DNA of 64,000 bases from an uncultured Ruminococcus sp. (GCA_900066355.1 FMEL01000017.1:11935-75934); one strand, 5' to 3'; counted from the first letter of the stretch, positions 2,497 through 22,044 are shown. Numbers and translations are program-made. Notes: generated from the letters alone by a model not told the origin.

Positions 2497-5400
2497 ATGG
2501 AATATATAGAGATAAAGGAACAGATCAAACAAAAGCTGCCGGTAGCCAGAGATTTGGGGGATTCCGAAAATCTGCTGGAGCTTGGGCTTTCATCCCTGAC
2601 GATCATGCGTCTGGTAAACCAGTGGAGAAAACAGGGGGTTAAGGTTTCATTCGGTTCATTGATGGAAAATCCTACCCTTGAAGGCTGGTGGGCGCTGATC
2701 CAGCGCAGCATGAAGAAAAAAGCGGGCAAAAAACGGGCGCAAAAATCTAAGATAACGCCGGAAAAGGATATGAAACAGCCGTTTCCTTTAACAGACGTAC
2801 AGTATGCATATTGGGTTGGCAGGGATGAAGAACAGGCTCTTGGAGGAATAGACTGTCATGCGTATTTAGAGTTTGATGGGGGAAATATAGATCCGGAGCG
2901 TCTGGAAAAAGCATGGAATGTGCTGCAGTATCATCATCCCATGCTGCGTGCCTGCTTTTTGGAAGATGGGACACAGAAAATCCTGGATAAGCCGTATTGT
3001 GAAAAAATAAAGGTTCATGATTTTTCACGGATGTCATCTGAGGAAGCAGAGGCAATGGCAGTATCTGTCAGAGAACGTTTATCCCATCGGAAGCTAAAGA
3101 TCGAGGAAGGCGAAGTGGCAGGAATAGAGCTTACGCTTTTTCCTGAAAATAGGGCACGCATGCACGTGGATATGGCACTTTTGGTTGCCGATGTACAGAG
3201 TTTGCAGATCTTATTGAGGGATTTGGCGGCTGCCTATCGCGGAGAAAGCCTTCCGGCAGAATCAAAAGGGTGGAATTTTGCTTCTTATCTGGAACGGCAG
3301 AAAGAGGAAGATAAGGAAGAGAGAAACAATGCAGAAGGATACTGGAAAAAACGCTTGGAGCATTTGCCGAAAGGGCCAGGCCTGCCACTGGCAAAACGGC
3401 CGCAGGAAGTGACAAAGACTGTATTCAACCGCAGGATTGTAAGGATTGGCAAGGAAGAGTGGGCTCATCTGCAAGTACGGGCAAAGGAATACCAGACAAC
3501 TCCGGCAATGGTTCTTCTTACTGCATATGCAACGGTTTTGGAACGGTGGAGCAGGAATCATCGTTTCCTTATTAATATTCCATTTTTTAACCGGAAAACA
3601 GAGCAGCAGGGATTGGAAGACGTGATAGCAGATTTCACTACACTGTTATTGCTGGAGATTGACTGCGAAGGGAATCCGACGTTTGCAGAATTGCTAGACA
3701 GGATTCAGAAGCAGCTCCATGAGGATATGAAGTATACGGCATATTCCGGCGTGCAAGTCCAGAGAGACCTTGCACAGATGTATGGAGACGCATCGGCAGT
3801 GGCGCCGGTTGTTTTTGCCTGCAATCTGGGAACGCCGTTGGTAAATGATACGTTCCGGAAAGAACTGGGGCAGTTTTCCTATATGATTTCCCAAACGCCG
3901 CAGGTGTGGAATGACTTCCAGAGTTATGAAGATGAAAATGGCGTACAGCTTACATGGGACAGCGTGGATAAGTTATTCCCGGAGAATATGATCCCGGATA
4001 TGCTGGAGTGTTTTGAGAATCTTCTGCATGAATTGGGAAAGAAGGACTGGAATCAGCGATTTGATGTGCTTCCTGAAAAAAGAAAAAGAGAAATTGAAGA
4101 TACAGCGCGTACAAGAGTGCCGGAGCGTGTGGAATGCCTGCATTGGGCTGTTATGAACCATGCGGAAGTTTGCCCGGAAGATATTGCGCTTATTGATGCG
4201 GGAAGCGGAAGATCGGTTTCCTATGGGGAATTAAAAGCACGGGCGACAGCAGTGGCGGCAGGGATTTCAGAAAAGGATATTAAGGGAGTCCCGGTTGCAC
4301 TTACCCTGCCGCGCGGGATAGAACAGATCGAGACGGCATTAGGAATTTTGCTTTCCGGAAATTCATACCTTCCGGTCAGCTTAAGCCAGCCTAAAGATCG
4401 GAGAGCGTTAATCCATGAGAAGACGGGAGTCCGCTATGTGGTCACGAATCGGGAATTATCCGAAAAACTGGACTGGCCGGAAGGTACGGAAATCCTTGTG
4501 ATGGAAGGTATGGAAGAGGGACAGGAAAATGTGAGACTGCCAGAGGTGTCGCCGAAGGACAGCGCCTATATCATCATGACGTCAGGCTCTACAGGTGTTC
4601 CGAAGGGTGTAGAGATTGCGCATGAAAGCGCATGGAATACGGTTCAGGATATTAATGAAAAGTACCATGTGACAAGTGCAGATCGGGCGCTGGCTGTATC
4701 AGCTATGGATTTTGACCTGTCGGTATATGATGTTTTTGGAATTCTAGGCGCAGGAGGAACATTGGTATTGCTTCCAGAGCAGGAGAGAAGGAATGCGGAT
4801 TACTGGCTGGAACAAGTGTTGAAATATCAGATTACCGTTTGGAATTCAGTGCCGGTGCTTCTGGATATGCTTTTGATACGGGCGGAATCCATGAAACAGA
4901 AACTGCCGATCAGGGCGGTTATGCTTTCCGGAGATTGGATTGGGATGGATCTCCCGCAGAGGGTTGCGGCATGGACAGAGGATTGCCAGTTTGTCGCTAT
5001 GGGAGGAGCTACAGAGGCAAGTATCTGGTCCAATTATCAGAATGTTACCCTGCCGATGCCGAAAAACTGGAAATCTATTCCTTATGGAAAGCCACTCAGA
5101 TATCAGGCATATCGTGTTGTGGATGAGTATGGAAGGGATTGCCCTTACTGGGCAGAAGGCGAACTCTGGATTGGCGGTTTTGGTGTAGCAAAAGGATATA
5201 GGGGAGATTCTGCGCTTACGGGGCAGAAATTTATCACAGATCAGTATGGAAGATGGTATCGGACCGGTGATCTCGGAAGAATCTGGGATGATGAGACAAT
5301 TGAATTTTTGGGAAGAAAAGACCATCAGGTAAAGATCCGTGGACACAGGATTGAATTGGGAGAAATTGAACATGCTATTCAGGAGTTTCCGGGTGTGGCT

Positions 5401-7038
5401 CATGCAGTTGTTGATACAGTTAGTGATGGTCATGGCAATAAAACGCTGGCTGCTTATATCGGAGCGCCGCTGCAGGAAGATTCTAAAGTTACAACGTATT
5501 TGTACGGCACAGATATCTTTGGCGGGGGCTGGAAAGAACTGAAGGATGATGTCAGCAATTGGCAGATGCAGCAGGAACGGAAGACAGCATACAAAAATTT
5601 CCTTGCCTATGCAGACCAGAGATGTGTACAGCTTATGCTGGAGACACTCATAGAGTTAGGCGTTTTTGTATCAGAGAAGGAAGTTCTTTCGCAGAAGGAA
5701 ATTTTTGAAAAAGGGAGCATTACGGAAACACAGAAGAATACTGTGGCAAGATGGTTGGAAATTTTAAAGAAGGAAGGAATCCTGAGAGAAGAGGACGGCA
5801 GACTATCGCGTACCGGGAAGGAAGTAGCTGTACCGGAAAAAGCTGGAGATGCGGAAACGTATTTTAAGAAACTGAAGCCGTATCTGAAGCATATGGTTAC
5901 TGGGAATGAAGTTCCGCTGGATGTATTTTATCAGAAAGATTCGGCGCTGGCTCCGAATATGTTGCTTCGGAGGATTCCGGGTTACGAGGAGACCGTGGAA
6001 AGACTGGTGCAGGAATTAAAACTTCTGATAGAAGGGCGCAGGAAAGAACCACTCCAGATTATAGAGATTGGGACAAGGGATGCTGCAATTACAAGACAGA
6101 TTTTAAATGTGCTGGAAGATGTAAGTGTGGCGTATACATATGTGGATTCTTCAAAATATTTTCTGCAGGAAGCGGAGAAAGAGCTTGCGGGATATGAAAG
6201 AGTCGAGTTTGAAATGCTGAATCTGGAAGAAAGCATGGACAAGCAGCAGATGGCTCTGCATAGTTATGACGTCGTGATATCGGTAAATGCTTTGCATAGA
6301 AATATTGACGCTGTGGATGCGGTAAAGAAAGTAGCGGAATTACTGAAGCCAAATGGGATATTGTTAATGACAGATCTTGTGGTAAGGACATATCTTCAGG
6401 AGCTTACAGCAACTTTTTTGGAAAATGGTTTCGCAGATATTCGGGACAAGAGAAAAGAAGCGGGGATGGTTACCCCAGATTGTCTGCTGTGGAGAGAATG
6501 CTTATCAGAGGCAGGATTAGGCCAGGACATTGTTGTAACAGAAGAATATGGGAGATGTATATGCTGCAGTAGGCAGCAGGCATCTGTCTTGTCCTATTAT
6601 GATGGAGCACTTAGGGAATATCTGTCGGAAAAGCTGCCGGAGTATATGGTTCCCCAAAACTATCATTTTATGGCACAGCTTCCAACATTGTCCAATGGAA
6701 AGATTAACCGGAAAAAATTACGGGAAGATTTTAAAGAAGAAACTTCGGTTATCAGATTTTCAAAAGCAGTAACGGAGACAGAAGAAAAACTTTTGGATAT
6801 TTGGAAACGAATGTTTGGTTATGAAAATTTAGGGACTGAAGATAATTATTTTGTTTTAGGTGGTGATTCATTAATAGCAACCAAATTGATTTCAGATATT
6901 CAGAAAGAATTTGGCTGTAAAATTATGATTAGTGATATTTTTGAAAATGTTACGATAAAATTATTGGCTCAAAAGATAGATTTAGTAAGACAAAATGTCA
7001 TTATGGAAGATATCGAGATGGAGTGTGGAGAAATTTAA
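2497..7038 (+). CDS. NRPS 1: ArCP - Cy - A(Cys-type, with about 370-aa methyltransferase-fold insert) - PCP (PchE/HMWP2-like)
   Basis: 1513 aa. Carrier motif LGLSSLT. Cy domain: FPLTDVQYAYWVGR and LLVADVQS. A domain: YIIMTSGSTGVPKGV, FDLSVYD, WNSVP, GGATEASIWS, YRTGD, GRKDHQVKIRGHRIELGEIE. An insert with IIEIGTRDAAIT and LLKPNGILLMTDL sits before A10 (NGKINRKKL). Terminal PCP: LGGDSLIATK. Confidence 0.9.
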   Translation: MEYIEIKEQIKQKLPVARDLGDSENLLELGLSSLTIMRLVNQWRKQGVKVSFGSLMENPTLEGWWALIQRSMKKKAGKKRAQKSKITPEKDMKQPFPLTDVQYAYWVGRDEEQALGGIDCHAYLEFDGGNIDPERLEKAWNVLQYHHPMLRACFLEDGTQKILDKPYCEKIKVHDFSRMSSEEAEAMAVSVRERLSHRKLKIEEGEVAGIELTLFPENRARMHVDMALLVADVQSLQILLRDLAAAYRGESLPAESKGWNFASYLERQKEEDKEERNNAEGYWKKRLEHLPKGPGLPLAKRPQEVTKTVFNRRIVRIGKEEWAHLQVRAKEYQTTPAMVLLTAYATVLERWSRNHRFLINIPFFNRKTEQQGLEDVIADFTTLLLLEIDCEGNPTFAELLDRIQKQLHEDMKYTAYSGVQVQRDLAQMYGDASAVAPVVFACNLGTPLVNDTFRKELGQFSYMISQTPQVWNDFQSYEDENGVQLTWDSVDKLFPENMIPDMLECFENLLHELGKKDWNQRFDVLPEKRKREIEDTARTRVPERVECLHWAVMNHAEVCPEDIALIDAGSGRSVSYGELKARATAVAAGISEKDIKGVPVALTLPRGIEQIETALGILLSGNSYLPVSLSQPKDRRALIHEKTGVRYVVTNRELSEKLDWPEGTEILVMEGMEEGQENVRLPEVSPKDSAYIIMTSGSTGVPKGVEIAHESAWNTVQDINEKYHVTSADRALAVSAMDFDLSVYDVFGILGAGGTLVLLPEQERRNADYWLEQVLKYQITVWNSVPVLLDMLLIRAESMKQKLPIRAVMLSGDWIGMDLPQRVAAWTEDCQFVAMGGATEASIWSNYQNVTLPMPKNWKSIPYGKPLRYQAYRVVDEYGRDCPYWAEGELWIGGFGVAKGYRGDSALTGQKFITDQYGRWYRTGDLGRIWDDETIEFLGRKDHQVKIRGHRIELGEIEHAIQEFPGVAHAVVDTVSDGHGNKTLAAYIGAPLQEDSKVTTYLYGTDIFGGGWKELKDDVSNWQMQQERKTAYKNFLAYADQRCVQLMLETLIELGVFVSEKEVLSQKEIFEKGSITETQKNTVARWLEILKKEGILREEDGRLSRTGKEVAVPEKAGDAETYFKKLKPYLKHMVTGNEVPLDVFYQKDSALAPNMLLRRIPGYEETVERLVQELKLLIEGRRKEPLQIIEIGTRDAAITRQILNVLEDVSVAYTYVDSSKYFLQEAEKELAGYERVEFEMLNLEESMDKQQMALHSYDVVISVNALHRNIDAVDAVKKVAELLKPNGILLMTDLVVRTYLQELTATFLENGFADIRDKRKEAGMVTPDCLLWRECLSEAGLGQDIVVTEEYGRCICCSRQQASVLSYYDGALREYLSEKLPEYMVPQNYHFMAQLPTLSNGKINRKKLREDFKEETSVIRFSKAVTETEEKLLDIWKRMFGYENLGTEDNYFVLGGDSLIATKLISDIQKEFGCKIMISDIFENVTIKLLAQKIDLVRQNVIMEDIEMECGEI

Positions 7039-7162
7039 CATTGTCAAATCTGTTTTTTAGTATATTTCATAATGAAAAATAGCTCGCATTTTTAGGGGCA
7101 AATTACGAGTATTAGATATTGAGGAGTGTAACTTGTCCCTATTTTATTGAGAAGGTGAGAAA

Positions 7163-9373
7163 ATGAGAAAATTAAAGTCACTTGTATGTGGTAGTAAGTT
7201 TGGACAATTTTATATAGATGCTATTAGTAAGATGAAAGAGTGCGTGGAATTCATAGGCATTTTTTCTAATGGAAGTGAACGATCAAGGCTATGTGCTGAA
7301 AAATATAATGTTAATTTATATACATCGATAGATAAAATCCCAGAGGATATAGACATTGTATTTATTGCTGTCAGAACGGGTGTAATGGGAGGTGATGGAA
7401 GTGAACTGGCATTAAAATTTTTGTCTAAAGGTATTCATGTATTCATTGAACAGCCTATTCATATAGACGAGATGAAAAAATGTGTAAAATGTTCAATTGA
7501 GAAGGGGGTATTTTTTCATGTAGCAAATTTTTATAAGTACATGGACACTGTTCATAAATACATTGAGTGCTCTAAAGGGCTGTTGAGGAAAAATGAAATA
7601 TTGTCAATAGAATGTGCTTGTGCTAATCAAGTTATATATAGTCTACTGGACAATATTTTGAGAATTTTCAGGGAAAAGGCAAGATTTTCGATTGAAAATT
7701 TTTGGATACAAAATCAAGATTTTTTTATTGCTTCAGGTAGTATTAACGATATACCGTTGAGTATTAAAGTATATAATTCTGTAAATACAGTCGATTCTGA
7801 TAGTTATTGCTATTATTTACAACAGATAAATATTTATACATCGGAAGGAATGCTTTTCATGGTTGATGTTAATGGACCGATTATTTGGAAACCGCAATTT
7901 CGAGCTGCTCATGACTTATTTATCAAGAAGGGGGATGAATTAGATCAGAAGATATTTGACAGTAAAATGTACTGGTATGAGTCAGAAAGTGAGTTGAGCT
8001 ATAAAGATATTTTTTGCAAAAAATGGATAGATGCTATAAAAAAAGAAATTAAAGAATTTATAGATAATATTTATTTTGAAAAAATGACGGAATATCGTCG
8101 GAAAATTCAAAGTGAAATTGTAATTCCCAGTATATGGGGGCTTATAACTCAAAAGATTGGCTACCCAAGATTGTATCAAAATGCAAATCATGCAGTTGAT
8201 TTAAATAACTATGTTTTAGATTTTTTTGAAGAAAAAAACACCTTTTTAAATGATTCACTAGAAATCAAAAAAACTGCAAACAATATTGACTTTTATTTGG
8301 AACCAGATATTACATATGGTTATGTTGAAGAAGCAAAACATATAATGAATATCGCATGTTTGGAGTCTATTTCATACAAACTGTACGAGGCGACTGGGGA
8401 GAAGGAGAATATATCAATAACAGAAATTGTAAGTTGCTTAAAGGTGGCAGATTCAAATATGCATATTTTACAAAGGTGGCTTAATGCTTTAAGTGAAAAT
8501 GGATATATAGAATGTAATGCTGGGAAAATTAAATGGAAAAAGAAAAATACAAGTATATGTGAGAAAGACAATTGGAAAATTGTGTCTGATAAGTGGGTTG
8601 GAAAATTATCAGGAGAACATGTCATTAATTATTATTTAAAACATATTGAAAAAATGGAAGCTTTGTTATCAGGAGAAATGAATGCTGCGTTATTATTGTT
8701 TCCGGAAGGAACAATAGAGTTAGCTAATTGTTTCTATAGAGAAAATTTAATGGAAAAATATCTTGCATATTGTATAGAAAAGATTCTTTCATTCGCTATA
8801 GAACATACTAAAAAAGATAAAATTAGGATATTAGAATTGGGAGCAGGAACAGGAGCAACAACAGACAGAATATTAAAGGTTCTTGAAAATTCAACTAAAA
8901 AAATAGCATATATTTATTCTGATATTACAAAATATTTTCTCAATTTTGCTGCTCAAAAGTACCAGGGAAAAGAAGAATTAGAGTATAAGGTGATAAATAT
9001 TGATTCTAACTTAAGTGACCAGGGAATTGCTGAAGAGAGTGTGGACATTGTCATAGCTGCTGGAATGATGAATAATGCTGTCAATACGGATTATTCTATG
9101 AGACAAATCATATGCAGCTTAGTACATGGCGGTATTGCTCTTATTGCTGAGCCAGTGGGAGAGAATTATGAGTTAATGTTATCACAATCATTTATGATGA
9201 GCCGGCCAACAGATGCAAGGGAAGTATGTAATGAAACTTTTTTGAAAATGGAGGAATGGAAAGAAGTTTTTTGGGGTTGCGGAATAAGTGAAAGAGAGTT
9301 AGTGGTAGTGCCAAGTGATACTAGTCCATTAGCACCATTAAATCAAAAGTTATTTATTATAAGGAAGGAATAA
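7163..9373 (+). CDS. Fusion protein: Irp3/PchG-like thiazolinyl imine reductase (N-terminal) + class I SAM methyltransferase (C-terminal)
   Basis: 736 aa. The N-terminus (LVCGSKFGQFYIDAI..GSERSRLCAEKYNVNLYTS..DIVFIAVRTGVMGGDGSELALKFLSKGIHVFIEQPIH) resembles Irp3(YbtU)/PchG as I recall them. The C-terminus has RILELGAGTGATTDRIL, DIVIAAGMMNN and GGIALIAEP, and is colinear with the MT-fold insert of NRPS 1. Confidence 0.7.
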   Translation: MRKLKSLVCGSKFGQFYIDAISKMKECVEFIGIFSNGSERSRLCAEKYNVNLYTSIDKIPEDIDIVFIAVRTGVMGGDGSELALKFLSKGIHVFIEQPIHIDEMKKCVKCSIEKGVFFHVANFYKYMDTVHKYIECSKGLLRKNEILSIECACANQVIYSLLDNILRIFREKARFSIENFWIQNQDFFIASGSINDIPLSIKVYNSVNTVDSDSYCYYLQQINIYTSEGMLFMVDVNGPIIWKPQFRAAHDLFIKKGDELDQKIFDSKMYWYESESELSYKDIFCKKWIDAIKKEIKEFIDNIYFEKMTEYRRKIQSEIVIPSIWGLITQKIGYPRLYQNANHAVDLNNYVLDFFEEKNTFLNDSLEIKKTANNIDFYLEPDITYGYVEEAKHIMNIACLESISYKLYEATGEKENISITEIVSCLKVADSNMHILQRWLNALSENGYIECNAGKIKWKKKNTSICEKDNWKIVSDKWVGKLSGEHVINYYLKHIEKMEALLSGEMNAALLLFPEGTIELANCFYRENLMEKYLAYCIEKILSFAIEHTKKDKIRILELGAGTGATTDRILKVLENSTKKIAYIYSDITKYFLNFAAQKYQGKEELEYKVINIDSNLSDQGIAEESVDIVIAAGMMNNAVNTDYSMRQIICSLVHGGIALIAEPVGENYELMLSQSFMMSRPTDAREVCNETFLKMEEWKEVFWGCGISERELVVVPSDTSPLAPLNQKLFIIRKE

Positions 9374-9379
9374 TACGCT

Positions 9380-12300
9380 ATGGATGCAAATAATTTAAAA
9401 AAGGCTTTTGAACTTTTTGTAAAATTGCAGGATAAGAAAGTAAAACTTAGTAATGTTGATGGAAAAATAAAATATAGAGCGCCGTCAGGAATTATGACAA
9501 ATGAAGTCATAGAGGAAATAAGAAAATGTAAAAATGAACTTCTGACAATTATTAATTGTACCGAGCATCCAGAAAAACTATGGAAAGGAAAGCAAGGAGA
9601 CAGTTTTCCATTAACAGATGTACAGTCTGCGTATTTGATTGGAAGAAAAAATATTTTTCAATATGGAAATGCAGCGTGCCACATTTATATGGAGGTTGAG
9701 TATTCTGAATTGGATTCTCAGCGTGTAGAGGAAGTGTGGAATATTCTAATTAATCGACATCCTATGCTGCGAGTAATCTTTAGTGATACAGGAATTCAAA
9801 AAATTTTAAGAGATACTCCTTGGTATACGTTGTATACAAATCGCAACATAACATATACGCAAGAAACTTTGCAAACTGAATTAGGACATAAAATATATGA
9901 TGCTTCAAAATGGCCTATGTTTGATATAGGGTGTGTATCTGGTCACAATAAGGCTATTCTGGGTATTTCTATCGATTTTATGATAGCGGATTGGGCAAGC
10001 ATATGGATATTAATAGACGAATTTGAAAAGTTATATCAAAATCCAACGGCTTCATTACCTAGAATTGAATACAATTTTAGTGATTATATATACTGTGAAA
10101 AAGTAAAGAAGTATACACCAAAATATTTTTCTGATCGTGAATATTGGATAGAACGCTTAGCTGAGTTTCCTGAAAAACCGGATCTCCCTATTATTAATGC
10201 TGTTGAGAATATTGATAAAAATGTTATATTTAAAAGATACAAATTTGTTGTTGAAAAAAACAAGTGGAAAACTATACAATTGATTTCTAGTAAGATGGGA
10301 TTGACAAGTTCTGCTGTTATTTTATCTGCATACGCTATGGTTATTTCAAAATGGAGTACCAACAAAAAATTTGTTATGAATTTAACGACTTTAAATAGAA
10401 ACAGTTATGAAAGCAAAGTAAATAATATTGTTGGGGATTTTACTTCAATAAATTTGTTGGCAGTTGATTTCTCAATTCAGAAGAGTTTTAGAGAATACGT
10501 GAAACAAATTCAGCAACAATTATTAACAGATATGGAACATAAGTTTTTTTCTGGTGTTGAAGTATTACGTGAATTGTCTCAAGGCAAAGAGAATATTATC
10601 ATGCCATATGTATTTACTAGTGGAATTGGAGTGATCCGGAATACTAAGAAAGAAGGTTACCATGGTAAATATTATCAAAATGGTATTTCTCAAACTCCAC
10701 AGGTGTTTATTGATTGTCAAGTGTTTGATCAGGACGATGAGTTATTAATAAATTGGGATGTGCGAGAAGGAATTTTTTTGCCTGAGGTTATAGATGAAAT
10801 GTTTTTAATGTTTCAAGATTTAATTTGCAATTTTTTGATTGACGCAGAAAATTGGAATGTAGAAAAGGTGACTGCTATATTAAATAAAAACATTAAAATT
10901 AGTAAGAAAAAATATGATTTGCCGAGTGGCTTGTTGTATTCTTCTATTTTGGAAATGGCAGAATTATGTCCCGAAAAAGAAGCAGTTCAAGATGAAAATG
11001 AAATATGGTCTTTCAGTAAATTAGTAAGAAAAAGCTGGTTCGTTCAAAATAAACTTCAACAGGAAGGGTGCATTCCAGGAGATCTTGTGGGGATTTTTAT
11101 GCCAAAATCAAACTATCAAATAGCAAGTGTTCTTGGCGTTTTAATGAACGGATGCACATATGTACCGATAGATATTCAACAACCTAAGAAACGCATAAAT
11201 GAAATTATTGAACAGGCGGGAATAAAATATGTTTTGATAAGTAGTTGTAGCAAGATAGAGTTAATGTTTTTAGATGTTAAGTACATTTATGCAGACAAAC
11301 AAAACAATGAAATAATTACAAAACAAATTCCGCAAGTCCCCAATAGCAGCATAGCGTATGTTATTTTTACATCTGGGAGTACGGGAAAACCTAAGGGGGT
11401 TGCTATTTCTCATTTGTCTGCATTGAATACAATATATTATGTAAATAAAATGCTGAATATTTCCACTAATGATATAGTTTTTGGAGTATCTCGATTAAGT
11501 TTTGACTTATCAGTTTATGACATATTTGGAATTTTGTCGGCAGGAGGAAAATTGTTCTTACCTGATGAAAACAGAATTGCAGATCCTTCTTATTTATTTG
11601 AGACGATAGTGAAACAAAAAATTACTGTATGGAATTCTGTTCCAGCCATAATGCAGATGATTCTGGAATACAGAGAAAATGAAAAAAGAACGGAACAGTT
11701 TAACATAAGGTGCTCATTGCTGTCTGGTGATTGGATACCGCTCACTTTGCCAGAAAGATTAATCTCTGCTTGTATGGAAAAAACACGGGTAATTAGTTTA
11801 GGTGGAGCAACAGAAGCAGCAATTTGGTCAATATATTATGAATATGAATACCTTTTTGATGAATGGAAAAGTATACCATATGGAAAAGCTCTTCCAAATC
11901 AAGAAGTTTATGTATTGGATAGTAAAAAAGAAATATGCCCGTTGGGTGCTGTTGGAGATATTTTCATTTCTGGTATAGGATTGGCAAAAGGGTATTTAAA
12001 TGAACCGCTACTAACCGAGAAAGCATTTATTATGGTAAATGGAGAAAGAATGTATGATACAGGTGATAAAGGAAAATATTTAGAAGATGGAAATATTGAA
12101 TTTTTAGGTCGGCGTGATACTCAAGTAAAATTGAATGGATTTAGGGTTGAGTTAGGAGAAATCGAGGCTAATATAGAAAAAATTAAATCCGTTAAATATG
12201 CTGCAGTTTTGTGTAGAGAAAAGGGACGAGAAAAAAGAGTAATTGCATATGTTGAACCGCAGCCATCTGAATTTACGGAAGATTTTAGCCTATATGTATT

Positions 12301-13651
12301 AAATGAGTTAAAACGAATGCTTCCGGCATATATGATTCCATACAATATACGTGTAATGAAATTGCCATTAACATCTAATGGTAAAATTGACAGAAAATAT
12401 CTTAAAAATATAGAAATTGTAGAGGATAAAAAAGAGGCAGATACGAAAAACACAATAAATAATGATTCATCTACTTATTTTCCGATAAAAGAGATATGGT
12501 GTAAATTGCTACAGAGAAGCGATATTAGACCAGATTCGGATTTGCGTAGTTTTGGAGCAGATTCTTTGATTATGGCACAAGCAGTTGGAAAAATACGGAA
12601 TTTTTTAAAAGAAAGTGGGAGTCAATGTGATGTACCGTTTGATATATTGCTGAAACAGACGATTAATTCCCCGACTTTGAGTGAGATAGTTTCATACATA
12701 GATCAAATTATTTTAAAAAAAGAAGTGAATAGCAGATATGAAGATGCTGAGGTAAATGAGGAAGAACTTGGCAAGCTAAAAATTCATAAAAAAGGGAAAG
12801 AAGATAAATTAGTTGTGATTTTCCACGCTGGCTTGGGATCGATTGATGAATTTTTACCATTTATACAAGGTCTATGTAATGAAGAAAAGGGGACTATTGT
12901 TAGTATAGCATTAAATAATGTAAAGCAATATTTAGATTTTTATGCAGGGCATTTATATGAGAGTGTTGCTGATAAATATACAAAAATTATACTTGACTTA
13001 GGCTATGATAAAATACAACTTATTGGACATTGTGTTGGCGGAATGATAGCTTTTGAGGTTGCAAAAAATATGATGGATAAGGGAGTTGATGTTATTGATG
13101 TCTCTCTGATTGATAGTATACCAGGGAAATATAGTATTGAGGATGAGGTAGTAATGGAACTAATGTTTTTACCTATGGTAAATATAACGTATCCTGTGTT
13201 GGCGGAATATCAATTAAATGAGCGGGAATTATATGAATATATGGATGAGAAATTTGGAAAATATACAGGAATAGAACAGAAATCTAAAAATAAAGTAGAA
13301 GAATACATAAATGGTCTTCGGGAGATTGAGAAAGAGGAAAGAATAAGACTGTATATAAACAGTGTATCGAAAAATATGCCAATTCAAATGTTTGTCTATT
13401 TATTTGATATATTCAAACAAAGTACAAATGGAGCTATATATAAACCTATACCATATTTAGGTGATATTCGTTTATTTATAGCAGAAGATACAGAGAAAAT
13501 TGTATTCCATCGAAGTGAAGAAGTTATAAATTTTTGGAGAGAAAATTGCATTGGTGATGTTACTGTTATTATGATTCCTGGAAATCATCTTACATGTTTT
13601 ACTGATGTAAACAATATTCAGAAGTTAGTAAATAAGATTACAGAGAAATAG
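9380..13651 (+). CDS. NRPS 2: TubC_N-like docking - Cy - A(Cys-type) - PCP - TE (PchF-like but without embedded MT)
   Basis: 1423 aa. Docking region: VKLSNVDGKIKYRAPSGIMTNEVIEEIRKCKNELL. Cy: FPLTDVQSAYLIGR and DFMIADWAS. A: YVIFTSGSTGKPKGV, FDLSVYD, LLSGDW, GGATEAAIWS, GRRDTQVKLNGFRVELGEIE, NGKIDRKYL. PCP: FGADSLIMAQ. TE: GHCVGG and GNH. Confidence 0.9.
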   Translation: MDANNLKKAFELFVKLQDKKVKLSNVDGKIKYRAPSGIMTNEVIEEIRKCKNELLTIINCTEHPEKLWKGKQGDSFPLTDVQSAYLIGRKNIFQYGNAACHIYMEVEYSELDSQRVEEVWNILINRHPMLRVIFSDTGIQKILRDTPWYTLYTNRNITYTQETLQTELGHKIYDASKWPMFDIGCVSGHNKAILGISIDFMIADWASIWILIDEFEKLYQNPTASLPRIEYNFSDYIYCEKVKKYTPKYFSDREYWIERLAEFPEKPDLPIINAVENIDKNVIFKRYKFVVEKNKWKTIQLISSKMGLTSSAVILSAYAMVISKWSTNKKFVMNLTTLNRNSYESKVNNIVGDFTSINLLAVDFSIQKSFREYVKQIQQQLLTDMEHKFFSGVEVLRELSQGKENIIMPYVFTSGIGVIRNTKKEGYHGKYYQNGISQTPQVFIDCQVFDQDDELLINWDVREGIFLPEVIDEMFLMFQDLICNFLIDAENWNVEKVTAILNKNIKISKKKYDLPSGLLYSSILEMAELCPEKEAVQDENEIWSFSKLVRKSWFVQNKLQQEGCIPGDLVGIFMPKSNYQIASVLGVLMNGCTYVPIDIQQPKKRINEIIEQAGIKYVLISSCSKIELMFLDVKYIYADKQNNEIITKQIPQVPNSSIAYVIFTSGSTGKPKGVAISHLSALNTIYYVNKMLNISTNDIVFGVSRLSFDLSVYDIFGILSAGGKLFLPDENRIADPSYLFETIVKQKITVWNSVPAIMQMILEYRENEKRTEQFNIRCSLLSGDWIPLTLPERLISACMEKTRVISLGGATEAAIWSIYYEYEYLFDEWKSIPYGKALPNQEVYVLDSKKEICPLGAVGDIFISGIGLAKGYLNEPLLTEKAFIMVNGERMYDTGDKGKYLEDGNIEFLGRRDTQVKLNGFRVELGEIEANIEKIKSVKYAAVLCREKGREKRVIAYVEPQPSEFTEDFSLYVLNELKRMLPAYMIPYNIRVMKLPLTSNGKIDRKYLKNIEIVEDKKEADTKNTINNDSSTYFPIKEIWCKLLQRSDIRPDSDLRSFGADSLIMAQAVGKIRNFLKESGSQCDVPFDILLKQTINSPTLSEIVSYIDQIILKKEVNSRYEDAEVNEEELGKLKIHKKGKEDKLVVIFHAGLGSIDEFLPFIQGLCNEEKGTIVSIALNNVKQYLDFYAGHLYESVADKYTKIILDLGYDKIQLIGHCVGGMIAFEVAKNMMDKGVDVIDVSLIDSIPGKYSIEDEVVMELMFLPMVNITYPVLAEYQLNERELYEYMDEKFGKYTGIEQKSKNKVEEYINGLREIEKEERIRLYINSVSKNMPIQMFVYLFDIFKQSTNGAIYKPIPYLGDIRLFIAEDTEKIVFHRSEEVINFWRENCIGDVTVIMIPGNHLTCFTDVNNIQKLVNKITEK

Positions 13652-13667
13652 TATCCGAAATAATTAG

Positions 13668-13994
13668 GTGAATCAATACAATAAGGAGAATGATTACTCC
13701 GATTTCTTCGGAGCCACTTGTCCGGACTTATATGCTAACACCAGATACAACCTGTACCTACGCATGGACAAACTGATGAAAAACCATCTCATGTTCCTGC
13801 ATGACAGAAGGGTTCCGACAAGTAATAATGAAGCCGAGAGACAGCTTCGCAACTATAAAAGAAAGCAAAAGCAGGTCGTGTCCTTCCGGAGTAACCAAAG
13901 CCACGATTATCTCTGTAAAAGCATGAGCATGCTGGTTGTGATGCGACAAAATGAAAGTAACCTCTTTGATAGAGTATCCAGGATTCTGGATTAA
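13668..13994 (+). pseudogene. DDE transposase C-terminal remnant (IS66-like)
   Basis: 108-aa ORF with no N-terminal catalytic region. LMFLHDRRVPTSNNEAERQLRNYKRKQKQVVSFRS fits the F-L-x4-VP-x-(T/D)NNxAER-x-LR C-terminal pattern of IS66-type transposases. A matching IS end follows at 14059-14070. Confidence 0.55.
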
Positions 13995-14070: not shown

Positions 14071-14178
14071 ATAAACAACACGCATACTTCAAAATTCAAA
14101 AAACATCCATGGACTGCGGCCATGAAAATATGCTATACTAACTGTGGTTTACTTATGCTAATCAGGGAGAAAATACAA

Positions 14179-15150
14179 ATGAGCGAACAGCAATTTACAG
14201 ACTTTTTTGACCCGGAAATTCAAAAAATTGTCAGCGAAGATGGCTGCTCCATTTACAGAATGAAAAATGTAACTGGGGAGGGTGTTATCACTCGCTATGA
14301 AATTCTTCCGGGTATTGAATTATTCTATAATGATTTTCACATGAGCGATGGACAGAATCAAAACAAGCTTCCGCACTCTGATGTACTTGAAATCAATCAT
14401 TGCCGGGAGGGACGTTTTGAATGCGAATTTGCTAATGGAGATTATCAGTATGTCGGTGCTGGCGATCTTGCAATTAACCGCCTGACAAACGAAACTACAT
14501 CAACTTACTTTCCGTTGTCGCATTATCACGGCATTTCTATTACCATTGATCTGCCTACGGCAGATCAAACTATGAAGCGGATAGAAAGTGTGATTGGAGG
14601 TCTGAATATAGATGTCTTTTCGATTGCAGATAAGTTTTGCAAGAATGATACCTGCATTGTATTAAGAACTCAAAGCGAAATTGAACATATTTTTTCGGAA
14701 CTTTATCGGGTGGAGCCTCGGATGATCGCTTACTATTTAAAAGTGAAAGTGTTGGAATTGCTGATGTTTCTGAATCAGGTTTCGCTTCAGGATTACCAGG
14801 AAGAACGAAGATATTTTGCAAGAAATCAAGTACAAACAATAAAGAAAATGCAGGAATATATGACAGCTGATCTTCGCAACCATTATACTTTGCAGGAGTT
14901 ATCAGAAAAATTTGAAATTCCTCTTACCTCAATGAAGGTTTGCTTCAAGGGCGTTTATGGGTGTTCTATTTATGCTTATATGAAATCCTATCGTATGCAG
15001 GCTGCCACGATCTTGCTTCGGGATACTTCTGACAGCATAACAGAAATTGCGGCTAAAATGGGATACGATAATCCAAGTAAATTTTCCGAAGTATTCAAAA
15101 AGGAATTTGGAGAACTGCCTTCCGAGTTCCGAAAAAAGTTGTCCAAATAG
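14179..15150 (+). CDS. AraC/XylS-family transcriptional regulator (PchR/YbtA-like position)
   Basis: Track ORF is 14122-15150. I moved the start to ATG 14179, which follows AGGGAG. The C-terminal double HTH reads ...YTLQELSEKFEIPLTSMKVCFKGVYG...ITEIAAKMGYDNPSKFSEVFKKEFGELPSEFR. There is a roughly 190-aa N-terminal ligand-type domain. Confidence 0.85.
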   Translation: MSEQQFTDFFDPEIQKIVSEDGCSIYRMKNVTGEGVITRYEILPGIELFYNDFHMSDGQNQNKLPHSDVLEINHCREGRFECEFANGDYQYVGAGDLAINRLTNETTSTYFPLSHYHGISITIDLPTADQTMKRIESVIGGLNIDVFSIADKFCKNDTCIVLRTQSEIEHIFSELYRVEPRMIAYYLKVKVLELLMFLNQVSLQDYQEERRYFARNQVQTIKKMQEYMTADLRNHYTLQELSEKFEIPLTSMKVCFKGVYGCSIYAYMKSYRMQAATILLRDTSDSITEIAAKMGYDNPSKFSEVFKKEFGELPSEFRKKLSK

Positions 15151-15297: not shown

Positions 15298-16239
15298 ATG
15301 AAACGGGATATGAGAAAATATATCCTACGGAAACTGGTTGAGCTGATATTTACTTTATTGTTTGTAACTCTACTGTCTTTCTTGCTGATGAGACTGTCAT
15401 CCGTTGATCCAGCCACAGCTTATGCAAAGAGGATGATCGGAAACCCCACAGCGGAACAGATTGAAAAGATTCGGATTCAGTTGGGGTTTGATAAACCATT
15501 GCTTGTCCAGTATGGCCGTTGGGTATGGGACTTACTGCATTTTGATTTAGGCGTTTCTTTGGCAAATGGACATGATGTTTGGACGGATATTGCCACAGCC
15601 TTTCCGAAAACGCTTGGAATTGTAGCTCTGGCATCTATCTTTCAGGTTGTTTTCATTGTAATCGTTAGTTGTATTGCCTTTTTACTTCCCTGGAAACTTC
15701 CGAAAAAGGCAGTCAGGCTTTTGTGCATTTTGGGTGTGTCCATACCCTCTTTCTATTTGGCAACCGTTTATCTGGATTATTTTGCTGTTCAAAAGTCATT
15801 AATTTCTGTGGCAGGAAATACAACCCTACTCAGCTACATATCTCCGGCAATCTGCATTGGCGTATTCGGGGCTTCTTTCTATACGCCGCTTCTGATGGAT
15901 GCTCTGGAGCATGAAAGCAACGAGGATTACGCATTTTATGCCCGTTGCCGTGGGCTTTCGGAAAAAAGGCTTTTGCTGTGCCATTTTATTCCGCGGGCAG
16001 CGATGGGTTTAGTTCCAAACTTTTTACAAAGCATTGGTTTGGCACTGGCTAACGCAACGGTGATTGAATCCATTTTTTCAATTCCGGGATTTGGTTATCT
16101 GATTGTAAACCATGTGCTTGATCGCGATACTCCCATGATACACGCCGAGGTGTTTTTTCTGGCGCTGGCGATTGCTCTTTGCAACATTGCCGCTGACTTG
16201 GTGCAGTGGGCAATCGGGCGTAAAAAGGGGGTGGCGTAA
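15298..16239 (+). CDS. ABC importer permease, NikB/DppB/OppB family
   Basis: 313 aa, multi-TM. The N-terminus YILRKLVELIFTLLFVTLLSFLLMRL..DP is typical of the peptide/nickel permease family. Confidence 0.85.
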   Translation: MKRDMRKYILRKLVELIFTLLFVTLLSFLLMRLSSVDPATAYAKRMIGNPTAEQIEKIRIQLGFDKPLLVQYGRWVWDLLHFDLGVSLANGHDVWTDIATAFPKTLGIVALASIFQVVFIVIVSCIAFLLPWKLPKKAVRLLCILGVSIPSFYLATVYLDYFAVQKSLISVAGNTTLLSYISPAICIGVFGASFYTPLLMDALEHESNEDYAFYARCRGLSEKRLLLCHFIPRAAMGLVPNFLQSIGLALANATVIESIFSIPGFGYLIVNHVLDRDTPMIHAEVFFLALAIALCNIAADLVQWAIGRKKGVA

Positions 16240-18547: not shown

Positions 18548-18548
18548 C

Positions 18549-22033: not shown

Positions 22034-22044
22034 GAGGTGCGAAG

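What the first reader, a model, noticed from the sequence alone, without database searches (positions are those of the whole stretch)
6600..13667. Sharp compositional break inside NRPS1 at the A10/PCP boundary: the assembly line is a natural chimera
I counted G+C by hand in 60-nt lines:
- 30/60 at 2521-2580
- 29/60 at 6601-6660
- 20/60 at 6661-6720
- 22/60 at 6721-6780
- 18/60 at 6781-6840
- 15/60 at 6841-6900
- 15/60 at 9421-9480
- 16/60 at 13561-13620
- 27/60 at 13741-13800

So DNA of about 50% GC switches to about 25-30% GC within the intact NRPS1 ORF. The switch falls around the A10 motif NGKINRKKL (about 6694-6720) and the start of the terminal PCP.

The low-GC tract covers that PCP and its acidic tail (...EDIEMECGEI), the reductase-MT gene and all of NRPS2. 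It stops within about 20 nt of the NRPS2 stop codon, where a truncated transposase begins.

The PCP plus C-terminal tail therefore shares its composition with NRPS2, whose N-terminus carries a TubC_N-like docking domain. The carrier/docking interface seems to have travelled with the downstream module. That would be a natural exchange-unit swap at the A|T junction that kept the reading frame.
Basis: seen in the sequence. Interest (0 to 1): 0.72.

Follow-up and report, generated by a model that had tools for sequence, protein, structure and literature searches.

The report
Chimeric gut metallophore synthetase, swapped tail
A peptide-assembly enzyme gene carried on a mobile element of human gut bacteria is a natural splice of two ancestries: a widely shared front half is joined, inside a small carrier domain, to a foreign AT-rich back half, and relatives carry the same front half joined to about ten other back halves.

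Summary
The GC break is real. All nine hand counts are exact, and it is the strongest compositional change point in the 64-kb window. GC3 falls from 0.47 to 0.23 and recovers after the NRPS2 stop codon.

Comparative data show a recombinant. NRPS1 up to nt 5921 is 99% identical to variants of the same conjugative element, found in about 20 Lachnospiraceae species, that carry entirely different downstream assembly-line genes. Nt 5922-6852 is 12% diverged from those variants, and from 6853 divergence is 33% with AT-directed codon changes. NRPS2 has no relative between 50% and 100% identity.

The junction is not at A10|PCP. Relatives also dip in GC across the A10-linker region. The best estimate is 6852/6853, between YF and VLGGDS of the PCP core motif, which is the natural T-domain breakpoint used by XUT engineering. 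Only the downstream-facing half of the carrier and the docking tail travelled with the reductase-MT gene and NRPS2.

About ten distinct low-GC tails share one codon usage. They join the same head at the C-A linker, at this T motif, or at the A8 motif of the second A domain.

The donor was not found, and the direction of transfer is inferred. This is a clean natural example of known NRPS recombination rules.

The parts
205..903 (+). 4'-phosphopantetheinyl transferase, part of the shared head
   Evidence: Pfam ACPS and AASDHPPT_N. 99.6% aa identity to L021.
842..2482 (+). Stand-alone aryl-acid adenylating enzyme (DhbE/YbtE/EqbD-like), part of the shared head
   Evidence: Pfam AMP-binding and AMP-binding_C. 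Best NCBIfam match is DHB-AMP ligase TIGR02275, at 545.7 bits, which is below its equivalog cut-off of 723. 99.3% aa identity to L021.
2497..7038 (+). NRPS1, 1513 aa: ArCP-Cy-A (with a methyltransferase inserted between A8 and A9)-PCP-docking tail. Intact ORF that spans the junctions.
   Evidence: ORF list, Pfam, motifs. The exact protein is on record in 443 blocks of the assembly collection and in isolate genomes.
2497..5921 (+). Zone 1 of NRPS1: the shared head, 99.2% nt identical to type-A variants that carry other tails
   Evidence: Sliding identity. Change point at 5922, support 5906-5922. GC 0.47, GC3 0.47.
5922..6852 (+). Zone 2: segment specific to type B (embedded MT, A9, A10, A-T linker, PCP helix 1). 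It is 12% nt diverged from every type-A variant and its substitutions show no compositional bias.
   Evidence: Type-A variants are 98-99% identical to each other across this stretch. L026 and L042 are identical to the window here.
6694..6720 (+). A10 motif NGKINRKKL (A9 LPEYMVP is at 6634-6654). It lies on the head side of the junction.
   Evidence: Motif search. It falls outside the 2-lnL support interval of the divergence step.
6847..6870 (+). PCP core motif YFVLGGDS (FFxxGGxS). The most likely crossover is between nt 6852 and 6853 (YF|VLGGDS). Ser codon at 6868-6870.
   Evidence: Alignment A1: identical through ...GAAGATAATTATTTT, then AT-rich synonymous codons (GGT GGT GAT TCA TTA ATA against GGG GGA GAC TCG CTG ATT). 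Maximum-likelihood step at 6853.
6853..7038 (+). Zone 3: second half of the PCP (helices 2-4) plus the acidic C-terminal docking tail ...MEDIEMECGEI
   Evidence: GC 0.28, GC3 0.226. 67% nt and 74% aa identity to PCP1 of type A. The tail ends in ...GEI, as does the NRPS1 of L024.
6853..13696 (.). Low-GC cassette of separate ancestry (about 31% GC)
   Evidence: Its codon usage matches that of about ten other tails (r = 0.92-0.96) and not that of the head (r = 0.38).
7163..9373 (+). Fusion of an Irp3/YbtU/PchG-like thiazolinyl imine reductase with a C-terminal methyltransferase (736 aa)
   Evidence: Pfam GFO_IDH_MocA, Irp3-like_C and methyltransferase families. NCBIfam thiazolinyl imide reductase, 206.6 bits, above the cut-off of 188.8. 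PDB matches YbtU 2.6e-24 and CurJ C-MT 1.1e-25.
9380..13651 (+). NRPS2, 1423 aa: TubC_N-type docking domain (nt 9410-9547)-Cy-A-PCP-TE
   Evidence: Pfam. PDB matches BmdB 3e-168 and PchE 5e-139. No relative between 100% and 50% identity in 5.8 billion proteins.
13668..13994 (+). Remnant of an IS66-family transposase (C-terminal end only), at the right edge of the low-GC cassette
   Evidence: Pfam DDE_Tnp_IS66, profile positions 235-280 of 284. GC change point at 13696. Absent between NRPS2 and AraC in L024 and L025.
14122..15150 (+). AraC-family regulator, first gene of the right arm
   Evidence: Pfam HTH_18. 74-76% aa identity to L024 and L025.
15298..20162 (+). Nik/Opp/Cnt-type ABC importer: two permeases, two ATPases and a substrate-binding protein
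   Evidence: Precomputed Pfam BPD_transp_1, ABC_tran, SBP_bac_5. The best NCBIfam matches for the binding protein are NikA and CntA, both below their cut-offs. 72-84% aa identity to L024 and L025. GC3 0.43-0.50.
20273..23775 (+). Pair of ABC exporter half-transporters (YbtPQ/EqbKL-like)
   Evidence: Precomputed Pfam ABC_membrane and ABC_tran. 80-85% aa identity to L024 and L025.
23951..25330 (-). MobA/VirD2-type relaxase of the conjugative element that carries the cluster
   Evidence: Pfam Relaxase, 1.1e-36. 84% nt identity to the corresponding gene of L023.

Best explanation
The window carries a pyochelin/equibactin-type aryl-thiazoline metallophore cluster as cargo of a conjugative element of human-gut Lachnospiraceae. 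It is a mosaic made by recombination between diverged homologous clusters.

The segment from the middle of the NRPS1 carrier domain (about nt 6853, at the FFxxGGxS core motif) to the NRPS2 stop codon (about 13651-13696) is a cassette of separate, low-GC ancestry. It contains the second half of the PCP, the C-terminal docking tail, the reductase-methyltransferase gene, and NRPS2 with its matching N-terminal docking domain. It replaces the corresponding part of a resident cluster whose head and transport arm have host-like composition.

The crossover joined homologous positions of two PCPs that are 74% identical in protein, so the reading frame was kept. The half of the carrier that contacts its own A domain stayed with the head. 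The half that must serve the downstream Cy domain came in with that domain, together with the docking peptide. The docking interaction itself is inferred.

A later homologous exchange, with its edge at 5906-5922, put the currently circulating head (99% identical across many species) in front of it.

Shown here: the composition steps, the identity steps, the different nearest relatives, the intact motifs, and the recurrence of the pattern with other tails. Inferred: the direction of transfer, the order of events, the docking cognacy, and that the product is made.
For: Composition:
- GC3 drops from 0.47 to 0.23 and returns to 0.43-0.50.
- The change points have LLR 72 and 22, against shuffle maxima of 16 and 10.
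- Tail RSCU correlates at r = 0.32-0.55 with the window's other gene sets (head, right arm, remaining genes).

Relatedness:
- Window 1-5921 is 98-100% nt identical to L021, L022, L023 and L027, whose downstream genes are different: a 2558-aa two-module NRPS plus an 1805-aa NRPS, a 2434-aa form with a TE, and others.
- A three-segment model places divergence steps at 5922 and 6853, with rates 0.8%, 12.5% and 32.8%. It gains 13.8 lnL over a single step.
- After 6852 the substitutions are AT-directed (31 against 6). Before 6655 they are balanced (44 against 37).
- Alignment A1 shows the protein conserved while codons switch at YF|VLGGDS.
- After about 6980 the window cannot be aligned to type-A variants.
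- NRPS2's best hit other than itself is 50% identical.

The cassette is an island:
- Against L024, the window's transport genes are 76-85% identical, but NRPS2 is 48% and the reductase-MT 45%.
- L024 against L025 gives 69% for NRPS2 and 62% for the reductase-MT, with transport genes at 74-87%.
- An IS66 remnant sits at the right edge.

Low GC is not intrinsic to these genes: L024, L025, L054, L050 and L051 are compositionally uniform.

Recurrence:
- 22 related loci long enough to judge have a GC change point inside gene 1.
- There are about ten or eleven distinct tails with shared codon usage (r = 0.87-0.96).
- They join the head at the end of the A8 motif of the second A domain (alignment A2), at the C-A linker WNQRFDV (L048), or about 45 aa into Cy2 (L022).

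Not an assembly artefact: the same arrangement is found in [Ruminococcus] faecis JCM 15917, in three other NCBI genome assemblies, and in hundreds of metagenome assemblies.

Docking: the C-terminal ...EMECGEI resembles ...DMDSGEI of L024, whose NRPS2 docking domain is the homologue of the window's.
Against: - No donor was found, so neither parent of the 6853 junction is in hand. NRPS2 has nothing between 50% and 100% identity. A 62-aa query covering the PCP half and tail found only fragments of itself. The metagenome scan returned only the same element.
- The 2-lnL support for the junction is 6752-6855. A crossover earlier in the PCP, in helix 1, cannot be excluded. The reference used is itself 12% diverged across zone 2.
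- Composition alone cannot show which piece moved.
- L053 is a distant relative whose head and A3-type tail are both about 53-69% identical to those of L027. It also has a head/tail GC3 step (0.41-0.47 against 0.27-0.31). A single recent acquisition does not easily explain that.
- Function of the hybrid is untested. The head's Cy1 motif has Ala in place of the first Asp, and decayed deletion variants exist (L017, L023).
Confidence: 0.8

Rival explanations
1. The junction is where the first reader placed it, at the A10 motif or the A-T linker (a whole-T exchange; fusion site I of the XUT work). The entire PCP would then have come with the downstream cassette.
For: The GC change point is at 6655, support 6638-6731. 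Divergence in 6655-6852 is slightly higher than in 5920-6655 (15.2% against 11.7%), and substitutions there lean towards AT (17 against 10).
Against: Type-A relatives show the same GC dip in 6655-6852 (0.355 against 0.320) and recover afterwards, so most of that decline belongs to the coding sequence itself. The divergence step has its maximum at 6853, and its 2-lnL support (6752-6855) excludes A10 at 6694-6720. Codon switching is visibly abrupt at YF|VLGGDS.
Confidence: 0.12
2. The direction is the reverse. A family of diverse, natively low-GC clusters already existed, and a single higher-GC head (thioesterase to NRPS1) swept through them by recombination at conserved motifs. The head would then be the incoming piece in each variant.
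For: Heads are 94-100% identical across about 20 species, while tails are mutually unalignable. This means many recent joins to one head. Complete clusters of the same architecture with uniformly low GC exist (L024 and L025). All tails share one codon usage.
Against: In the window, and visibly in L021 and L022, the regulator and transport genes to the right of the tail have host-like GC again, so the low-GC part is an island. Codon usage of the head matches the rest of the window, including host glycosidase genes (r = 0.80), whereas the tail does not (r = 0.55). The right arm and the cassette relate differently to L024. The two readings are not fully exclusive: both require the same junctions.
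Confidence: 0.25
3. No transfer took place. The compositional step would be maintained within one lineage by selection or a local mutational or recombinational bias acting on the downstream biosynthetic genes.
For: L053, a distant relative, shows a head/tail GC3 step with head and tail similarly diverged from those of L027. Every variant on the conjugative element shows a low-GC tail.
Against: The step coincides with a step in relatedness, and beyond it homology to sister elements that are 99% identical upstream is lost entirely. Amino acids are conserved while synonymous codons switch. Homologous tails in L024, L025 and L054 have the same composition as their heads. NRPS2 has no close relatives, while the head has thousands.
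Confidence: 0.04
4. The arrangement is an assembly chimera of two organisms' contigs.
For: None beyond the sharpness of the break.
Against: An identical arrangement with intact ORFs occurs in isolate genomes: [Ruminococcus] faecis JCM 15917 (L042), and GCA_900066345.1, GCA_018736225.1 and GCA_020564005.1 at 99.9% nt identity. It also occurs in contigs from many independent metagenome assemblies.
Confidence: 0.01

Closest known systems
Natural T-domain recombination breakpoint and XUT exchange units (Bozhueyuek et al., bioRxiv 10.1101/2022.12.02.518901; later published in Science 2024 according to my own knowledge)
   Same: The breakpoint lies in the conserved FFxxGGxS core motif of the carrier domain, around the two glycines. 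[quoted passage not shown] Fragments of very different GC content are joined.
   Different: In that work the breakpoint was inferred statistically from phylogenetic hidden Markov models on Xenorhabdus/Photorhabdus and other NRPSs, and then engineered. Here a single junction is visible nucleotide by nucleotide, because the two sides differ by 0.24 in GC3. It is in a terminal PCP that hands over in trans through a docking pair, in Cy-type modules of gut Firmicutes.
Equibactin locus (eqbA-N) on ICESe2 of Streptococcus equi (PMC3672683)
   Same: A yersiniabactin-like aryl-capped thiazoline NRPS carried by a conjugative element of a Firmicute. It has a stand-alone aryl-AMP ligase, a PPTase, Cy domains, a thiazoline reductase and a pair of ABC exporters, and no salicylate synthase in the locus (window).
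   Different: EqbE and EqbG are HMWP2/HMWP1-like, with a single A domain serving three PCPs. The window has two Cy-A-PCP modules (PchE/PchF-like), a reductase-MT fusion and a Nik/Opp-type importer. The paper was read only by term search, and no head/tail mosaic appears in the passages read. Sequence identity to the Eqb proteins was not measured here.
Pyochelin synthetase PchD/PchE/PchF/PchG of Pseudomonas aeruginosa
   Same: Same assembly logic: aryl-AMP ligase, ArCP-Cy-A-PCP, Cy-A-PCP-TE, and a separate thiazolinyl reductase. PchE (PDB 7EMY) matches NRPS2 at 5e-139. Sources name relatives of NRPS2 'pyochelin synthetase'.
   Different: According to my own knowledge, PchF carries its N-methyltransferase inside the A domain. 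Here NRPS2 has none, and the MT is fused to the reductase. NRPS1 has an embedded MT. The subunits are linked by a TubC_N-type docking domain. There are no pchA/pchB salicylate genes.
Putative siderophore cluster on conjugative transposon 023_CTn1 of Clostridioides difficile RT023 (PMC6814731)
   Same: Same gene set on a conjugative transposon shared with gut commensals: thioesterase, PPTase, DHB-AMP ligase, two NRPSs (one annotated as PchF-like), saccharopine dehydrogenase-like protein and thiazolinyl imide reductase. antiSMASH calls it equibactin-like. It resembles variant L022.
   Different: It is described only as annotated cargo. The paper was read only by term search, and no recombination or compositional analysis appears in the passages read. 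It was not compared with the window at sequence level here.
Pyoverdine locus diversity in Pseudomonas aeruginosa (my own knowledge: Smith et al. 2005, J Bacteriol)
   Same: Alternative NRPS modules and matching uptake genes at one locus within a population, with atypical codon usage. This is interpreted as diversification of a public-good metallophore. Here the type-A and type-B variants also differ in importer (ECF type against Nik/Opp type).
   Different: That locus is chromosomal and is found in one species. Here the locus is cargo on a conjugative element spread across genera, and the junctions are mapped to specific core motifs. Diversifying selection was not tested here.

Membership tests
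Aryl-capped thiazoline NRPS metallophore clusters (pyochelin / yersiniabactin / equibactin type) | Stand-alone aryl-acid adenylating enzyme plus an N-terminal aryl carrier domain on the first NRPS | tested here: met
   The 546-aa AMP-binding protein has DHB-AMP ligase as its best NCBIfam match (545.7 bits, below the equivalog cut-off of 723, so the substrate is not assigned). NRPS1 has two PP-binding stretches, one of them N-terminal.
Aryl-capped thiazoline NRPS metallophore clusters (pyochelin / yersiniabactin / equibactin type) | Heterocyclisation (Cy) domains: FPLTxxQ start, DxxxxDxxS in place of HHxxxDG | tested here: inconclusive
   FPLTDVQ is present in both NRPSs and HHxxxDG is absent from both. 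NRPS2 has DFMIADWAS. NRPS1 has ALLVADVQS, lacking the first Asp, while distant relatives have DLLVADVQS. The closest PDB matches are the Cy-A-T protein BmdB, PchE and the HMWP2 Cy domain.
Aryl-capped thiazoline NRPS metallophore clusters (pyochelin / yersiniabactin / equibactin type) | Thiazolinyl imine reductase (PchG/Irp3/YbtU) | tested here: met
   NCBIfam TIGR01761, 206.6 bits, above the cut-off of 188.8. Pfam Irp3-like_C. PDB YbtU 2.6e-24.
Aryl-capped thiazoline NRPS metallophore clusters (pyochelin / yersiniabactin / equibactin type) | Cys-specific A domains | not tested
   Specificity codes were not extracted.
Aryl-capped thiazoline NRPS metallophore clusters (pyochelin / yersiniabactin / equibactin type) | Salicylate or DHB synthesis genes in the cluster | tested here: not met
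   None was seen among the genes of window 1-24000 or in the 10 kb upstream in L001-L010. Equibactin also lacks them and needs supplied salicylate, so this feature is not universal.
Aryl-capped thiazoline NRPS metallophore clusters (pyochelin / yersiniabactin / equibactin type) | A metal-chelating product is made and taken up | not testable with these tools
   Only gene content is available: a Nik/Cnt-like binding-protein importer and a pair of ABC exporters.
Natural NRPS recombinants with a T-domain (XUT-type) breakpoint | Two sides of one T domain have different evolutionary histories | tested here: met
   Identity to type-A sister elements is 87.5% before nt 6853 and 67% after it. Upstream of 5922 identity is 99%, and the downstream genes are unrelated. 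NRPS2 and the head have different nearest relatives.
Natural NRPS recombinants with a T-domain (XUT-type) breakpoint | Breakpoint at or next to the FFxxGGxS core motif | tested here: met
   The maximum-likelihood estimate is 6853, which is YF|VLGGDS. The support interval 6752-6855 still allows helix 1 of the same domain.
Natural NRPS recombinants with a T-domain (XUT-type) breakpoint | Both parental sequences identified | tested here: not met
   The parent lineage of the head is represented by relatives that are 12% diverged. The low-GC donor was not found.
Natural NRPS recombinants with a T-domain (XUT-type) breakpoint | The hybrid synthetase is active | not testable with these tools
   Indirect only: ORFs and core motifs are intact, and the arrangement is conserved at 99.9-100% in several species and hundreds of metagenomes.
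TubC_N (beta-hairpin) docking pairs between NRPS subunits | N-terminal TubC_N domain on the downstream subunit | tested here: met
   PF18563, 31.9 bits against a cut-off of 26, aa 11-56 of NRPS2.
TubC_N (beta-hairpin) docking pairs between NRPS subunits | Cognate short C-terminal peptide on the upstream subunit that binds the docking domain | not testable with these tools
   An acidic tail ...MEDIEMECGEI is present and resembles ...DMDSGEI of L024. Binding was not tested.

The most novel reading that the evidence does not exclude
The conjugative-element family acts as a natural combinatorial system. One conserved initiation head (thioesterase, PPTase, aryl ligase, ArCP-Cy-A...) circulates among many gut Lachnospiraceae and is repeatedly recombined with a pool of low-GC downstream cassettes. 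The joins occur at a handful of conserved motifs: the C-A linker, the T core motif and A8. Each cassette brings its own docking pair, and the matching uptake genes also differ between type-A and type-B variants. The result would be a population-level library of different metallophores, plausibly driven by competition over a shared public good. The window would be one member whose junction happens to be readable at nucleotide resolution.
Probability: 0.4. Interest if true: 0.8.

Novelty: new member of a known kind. Interest (0 to 1): 0.6.

Why it matters
Most evidence for where nature cuts and rejoins NRPS assembly lines is statistical. Here the two sides of a junction differ so much in codon usage that the crossover can be read directly. 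It falls at the carrier-domain core motif that engineers have adopted as a fusion site. It keeps the upstream-facing half of the carrier with its A domain and moves the downstream-facing half together with the next module and its docking pair.

Sister elements give further natural junctions on the same head, at the C-A linker and at A8. Together they form a set of natural test cases for the exchange-unit rules.

The elements are common in human gut metagenomes and cross genus boundaries. The tails probably encode different metallophores in an ecosystem where siderophores of anaerobic Firmicutes are barely characterised.

Tried and rejected
- Megablast of both halves against the plasmid collection found nothing.
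- Search for the donor of the low-GC cassette failed:
  - the protein search with NRPS2 gave nothing between 50% and 100% identity;
  - a 62-aa query covering the PCP half and docking tail found only fragments of itself;
  - a metagenome scan with a reductase-MT alignment returned three loci that are all the same element. L056 looked like an 85% relative but is 99.7% nt identical with frameshifts.
- Idea that type B arose from the 2558-aa type A by deletion between PCP1 and PCP2: rejected. The window's PCP and tail are 79% identical to PCP1 but only 34% to PCP2, and NRPS2 is only 36-37% identical to the type-A modules.
- Idea that low GC is intrinsic to tail genes: rejected, because L024, L025, L054, L050 and L051 are compositionally uniform.
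- Taking the GC change point (6655) as the junction: rejected after seeing the same dip in L021.
- The ORF lengths first computed from the match starts of the genome-contig loci were wrong, because the matches began upstream of the gene. They were redone with a start-codon probe.
- Two literature searches for a prior description of the gut Lachnospiraceae cluster were uninformative. A further search on the single term 'equibactin' led to two genome announcements with an antiSMASH 'equibactin' hit (one opened) and to the C. difficile 023_CTn1 paper.

Full report
**1. The observation**

GC is 0.42-0.51 up to nt 6600, 0.27-0.39 from 6900 to 13500, and 0.37-0.49 afterwards. Likelihood change points lie at 6655 (support 6638-6731, LLR 72.4) and 13696 (support 13635-13740, LLR 21.6). 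In 1000 block shuffles the highest LLRs were 15.8 and 10.0. These are the two strongest change points anywhere in the 64-kb window.

Third-position GC shows the contrast most clearly:

| Segment | GC3 |
|---|---|
| Head | 0.47-0.50 |
| Reductase-MT | 0.25 |
| NRPS2 | 0.235 |
| Regulator and transport genes to the right | 0.38-0.50 |

Codon usage of the tract correlates at r = 0.32-0.55 with the window's other gene sets (head, right arm, remaining genes), which correlate at r = 0.75-0.80 with each other.

The annotations in the finding are also correct:
- NRPS1, intact, 2497-7038: ArCP-Cy-A with an embedded methyltransferase, then PCP.
- A10 NGKINRKKL at 6694-6720.
- An Irp3-like reductase fused to a methyltransferase, 7163-9373.
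- NRPS2, 9380-13651: TubC_N docking domain-Cy-A-PCP-TE.
- An IS66 transposase remnant starting 17 nt after the NRPS2 stop.

**2. Where the window comes from**

The exact NRPS1 and NRPS2 proteins are on record in 443 and 387 blocks of the assembly collection. Most are human-gut metagenome assemblies, and four are NCBI genome assemblies. A scan of species-representative genomes found the same first gene at 94-100% protein identity in about 20 Lachnospiraceae species. These include Dorea, Blautia, Hominiventricola, Sellimonas, Faecalicatena and Fusicatenibacter. [Ruminococcus] faecis JCM 15917 carries the window's own arrangement.

The cluster is cargo of a conjugative element:
- Upstream, outside the window, lie a 2560-aa SNF2-type helicase protein, a YodL-LPD polyvalent protein and an Agr-like quorum-sensing cassette.
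- Downstream, in the window, lie a relaxase, a LexA-like/Y-family polymerase pair and three tandem serine recombinases.

**3. The head has many close relatives with different tails; the tail has none**

The best hits to NRPS1 are not 1513-aa proteins. They are 2434-2562-aa proteins that are 93-96% identical over 99% of the query. Their contigs show the same upstream backbone and the same thioesterase-PPTase-aryl ligase genes, but different downstream genes:
- L021: a 2558-aa two-module NRPS, an 1805-aa NRPS, a separate Irp3-like reductase and a carrier-reductase protein.
- L027: the 2558-aa NRPS followed by six further genes, including a 2160-aa NRPS.
- L022 (Mediterraneibacter sp.): a 2434-aa form ending in a TE.
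- L023: a truncated 1479-aa form.

NRPS2 is the opposite case. Apart from copies of itself, its best hit in 5.8 billion proteins is 50% identical.

**4. Mapping the boundaries**

The window was aligned with four type-A variants (L021, L022, L023, L027) and a second type-B copy (L026). Identity to type A changes along the sequence as follows:

| Window coordinates | Identity to type A |
|---|---|
| up to about 5900 | 98-100% |
| 5900-6750 | 85-91% |
| about 6790-6930 | 72% |
| after about 6980 | not alignable |

Across 5900-7030 the type-A variants are 98-99% identical to each other. The two type-B copies are identical to each other from 5900 on, while their heads match different type-A haplotypes.

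A three-segment likelihood model puts the steps at 5922 (support 5906-5922) and 6853 (support 6752-6855). The mismatch rates are 0.8%, 12.5% and 32.8%. The model gains 13.8 lnL over a single step.

**5. Why the junction is not at A10**

Over 6655-6852, the type-A reference L021 also falls to GC 0.355, against 0.320 in the window. It then recovers to 0.43, whereas the window falls further to 0.25. This stretch encodes A10, the A-T linker and helix 1 of the PCP, and it is AT-rich in both lineages.

The direction of the differences tells the same story:

| Region | Window AT where L021 has GC | Window GC where L021 has AT |
|---|---|---|
| 5920-6655 | 44 | 37 |
| 6852-6995 | 31 | 6 |

Alignment A1 shows identity through ...GAA GAT AAT TAT TTT (E D N Y F, ending at 6852). 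After that the protein is nearly the same but is written in AT-rich codons: GTT TTA GGT GGT GAT TCA TTA ATA GCA in the window against AGC CTT GGG GGA GAC TCG CTG ATT GCC in type A.

The most likely crossover is therefore between YF and VLGGDS of the PCP core motif FFxxGGxS. The phosphopantetheine serine is on the tail side.

This is the boundary that Bozhueyuek et al. inferred as a natural recombination site 'around two conserved glycine residues' and used as XUT fusion sites III and IV. [quoted passage not shown]

**6. Nature of the low-GC PCP half**

Its protein is 74-79% identical to PCP1 of type A and only 34% identical to PCP2. The donor's first NRPS was therefore a diverged homologue of the same module. 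The exchange was between homologous positions, which explains why the frame was kept. This also rules out a simple PCP1-PCP2 deletion from type A.

The C-terminal tail ...EMECGEI resembles ...DMDSGEI at the end of the NRPS1 of L024. That cluster's NRPS2 carries the homologous docking domain. This is consistent with the tail peptide and the docking domain being a cognate pair that moved together. That they bind is an inference.

**7. The low-GC tract is an island**

L024 and L025 are clusters with exactly the window's architecture: single-module NRPS1, reductase-MT fusion, docking-Cy-A-PCP-TE, AraC, Nik/Opp-type importer and an ABC exporter pair. Their composition is nearly uniform, with GC3 0.27-0.35.

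| Comparison | Transport and regulator genes | NRPS2 | Reductase-MT |
|---|---|---|---|
| Window vs L024 | 74-85% | 48% | 45% |
| L024 vs L025 | 74-87% | 69% | 62% |

The middle block therefore has a different history from the right arm as well as from the head. Its right edge carries a truncated IS66 remnant that is absent from L024 and L025.

The simplest reading is a double exchange that replaced the downstream biosynthetic genes of a resident cluster. A later homologous exchange, ending at 5906-5922, then brought in the currently circulating head. The order and direction of these events are inferred.

**8. The pattern recurs**

Twenty-two related loci long enough to judge have a GC change point inside gene 1. 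The tails fall into about ten or eleven sequence types. All have GC 31-34% and GC3 0.23-0.28. Their codon usage is almost identical (r = 0.87-0.96), and it correlates at only r = 0.35-0.46 with the head.

The junctions differ by variant:
- Six type-A tails diverge from one another exactly at the end of the A8 motif (GYRVELGEIE) of the second A domain (alignment A2).
- L048 (Blautia intestinalis) switches at the C-A linker, after WNQRFDV.
- L022 switches about 45 aa into Cy2.

More distant relatives such as L054, and the Pseudobutyrivibrio loci, are compositionally uniform.

**9. What remains unexplained**

The donor was not found.

L053 has a head and an A3-type tail that are both 53-69% identical to those of L027. 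It also shows a GC3 step, 0.41-0.47 against 0.27-0.31. Either the joins recur between the same kinds of partners, or something maintains the difference over time. I cannot tell which.

Composition favours the tail as the foreign piece: the head and the right arm resemble the host genes of the window. A sweep of one head through pre-existing low-GC clusters is not excluded, however.

**10. What the cluster probably does**

By gene content it is a pyochelin/equibactin-type pathway. An aryl acid is activated by the stand-alone ligase and loaded on the ArCP. Two Cy-A-PCP modules add and cyclise what are presumably cysteines. The Irp3-like reductase reduces one thiazoline, methyltransferases decorate the product, and the TE releases it. 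The Nik/Cnt-like importer and the ABC exporter pair move it across the membrane.

No salicylate or DHB synthase is present. The same is true of equibactin, whose production needs supplied salicylate. The substrates and the product are predictions.

**11. Comparison with what is known, and verdict**

Natural recombination within T domains, A subdomains and C-A linkers is established. Equibactin-like clusters on conjugative elements of Firmicutes, including gut species, have been noted as annotations. My limited literature searches found no description of this head/tail mosaic or of its junctions.

The finding is real and its core interpretation is right. The junction is about 130-160 nt further downstream than proposed, inside the carrier domain. 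I rate it a new member of a known kind. It is of above-average interest because the junction is unusually legible, because it coincides with an engineering fusion site, and because the same head carries about ten alternative tails in a common human-gut mobile element.

Noticed in passing
window 13031-13033 (NRPS2 aa 1218, motif GHCVGG at aa 1216-1221): The terminal thioesterase has Cys where the usual GxSxG serine nucleophile sits. The same GxCxGG motif is present in the homologous TEs of L024, L025, L021 and L022, so it is a feature of the family.
   Followed up: partly
window 3175-3201 (NRPS1 aa 227-235): The Cy1 core motif reads ALLVADVQS, with the first Asp of DxxxxDxxS replaced by Ala. 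This is so in the window and in P0001, whereas relatives that are 50-67% identical have DLL(V/I)ADVQS. It is unclear whether Cy1 of the circulating head is fully active.
   Followed up: partly
L017 (GCA_900066335.1, FMEU01000005.1), equivalent to window 7426 onward: A decayed variant. Everything from the thioesterase to the middle of the reductase domain is missing, and the element backbone (YodL-LPD gene, with a group II intron reverse transcriptase upstream) abuts a 504-aa methyltransferase remnant followed by an intact NRPS2. It is 99.99% identical to the window from 7426 to 23651.
   Followed up: partly
L023 (ENA ERZ28583552), NRPS gene 10001-14440: A type-A deletion form. The first NRPS follows type A to aa 1388, then continues into a short fragment of a condensation domain and stops at 1479 aa. 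No downstream NRPS remains.
   Followed up: no
window 18549-20162: The importer's substrate-binding protein is most similar to nickel NikA and to staphylopine-dependent CntA models (319 and 236 bits, both below their cut-offs), not to classical ferric-siderophore binders. The metal targeted may not be iron. Type-A variants instead use an ECF-type (Trep_Strep/CbiQ) importer.
   Followed up: partly
L001-L010, 4002-6875 (just upstream of window position 1): An Agr-like quorum-sensing cassette (LytTR response regulator, histidine kinase, a 52-aa ORF in the AgrD position, AgrB) sits directly upstream of the thioesterase gene in all variants. This suggests density-dependent control of the cluster.
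   Followed up: no
window 34450-39518: Three tandem large serine recombinase genes (600, 566 and 524 aa), probably the integration module at the end of the conjugative element.
   Followed up: no
window 40452-48769 and change point at 49326: A second small mobilisable unit (CHC2 primase, VapE-like protein, Mob_Pre relaxase, MatE, resolvase) lies between the recombinases and the host glycoside-hydrolase genes. The third-strongest GC change point of the window (49326) marks the start of the host GH3 gene.
   Followed up: no
window 26991-29164: A LexA-like S24 peptidase gene is divergently paired with a Y-family (ImpB/UmuC) polymerase gene inside the element.
   Followed up: no
L056 (VOFG01000389.1): This metagenome contig is the same element at 99.7% nt identity but with many frameshifts that split every long gene. 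It is probably a sequencing or assembly error rather than decay. In the protein-level scan it looked like an 85% relative.
   Followed up: yes
L053 (ENA ERZ15234849), gene 1 at 10001-17665 and tail at 17658-27665: A distant relative (head 64-66% aa identity) whose A3-type tail is 53-69% identical to the tail of L027. It nevertheless shows a head/tail GC3 step. Identity between the two drops to 38% just after the A8 junction.
   Followed up: partly
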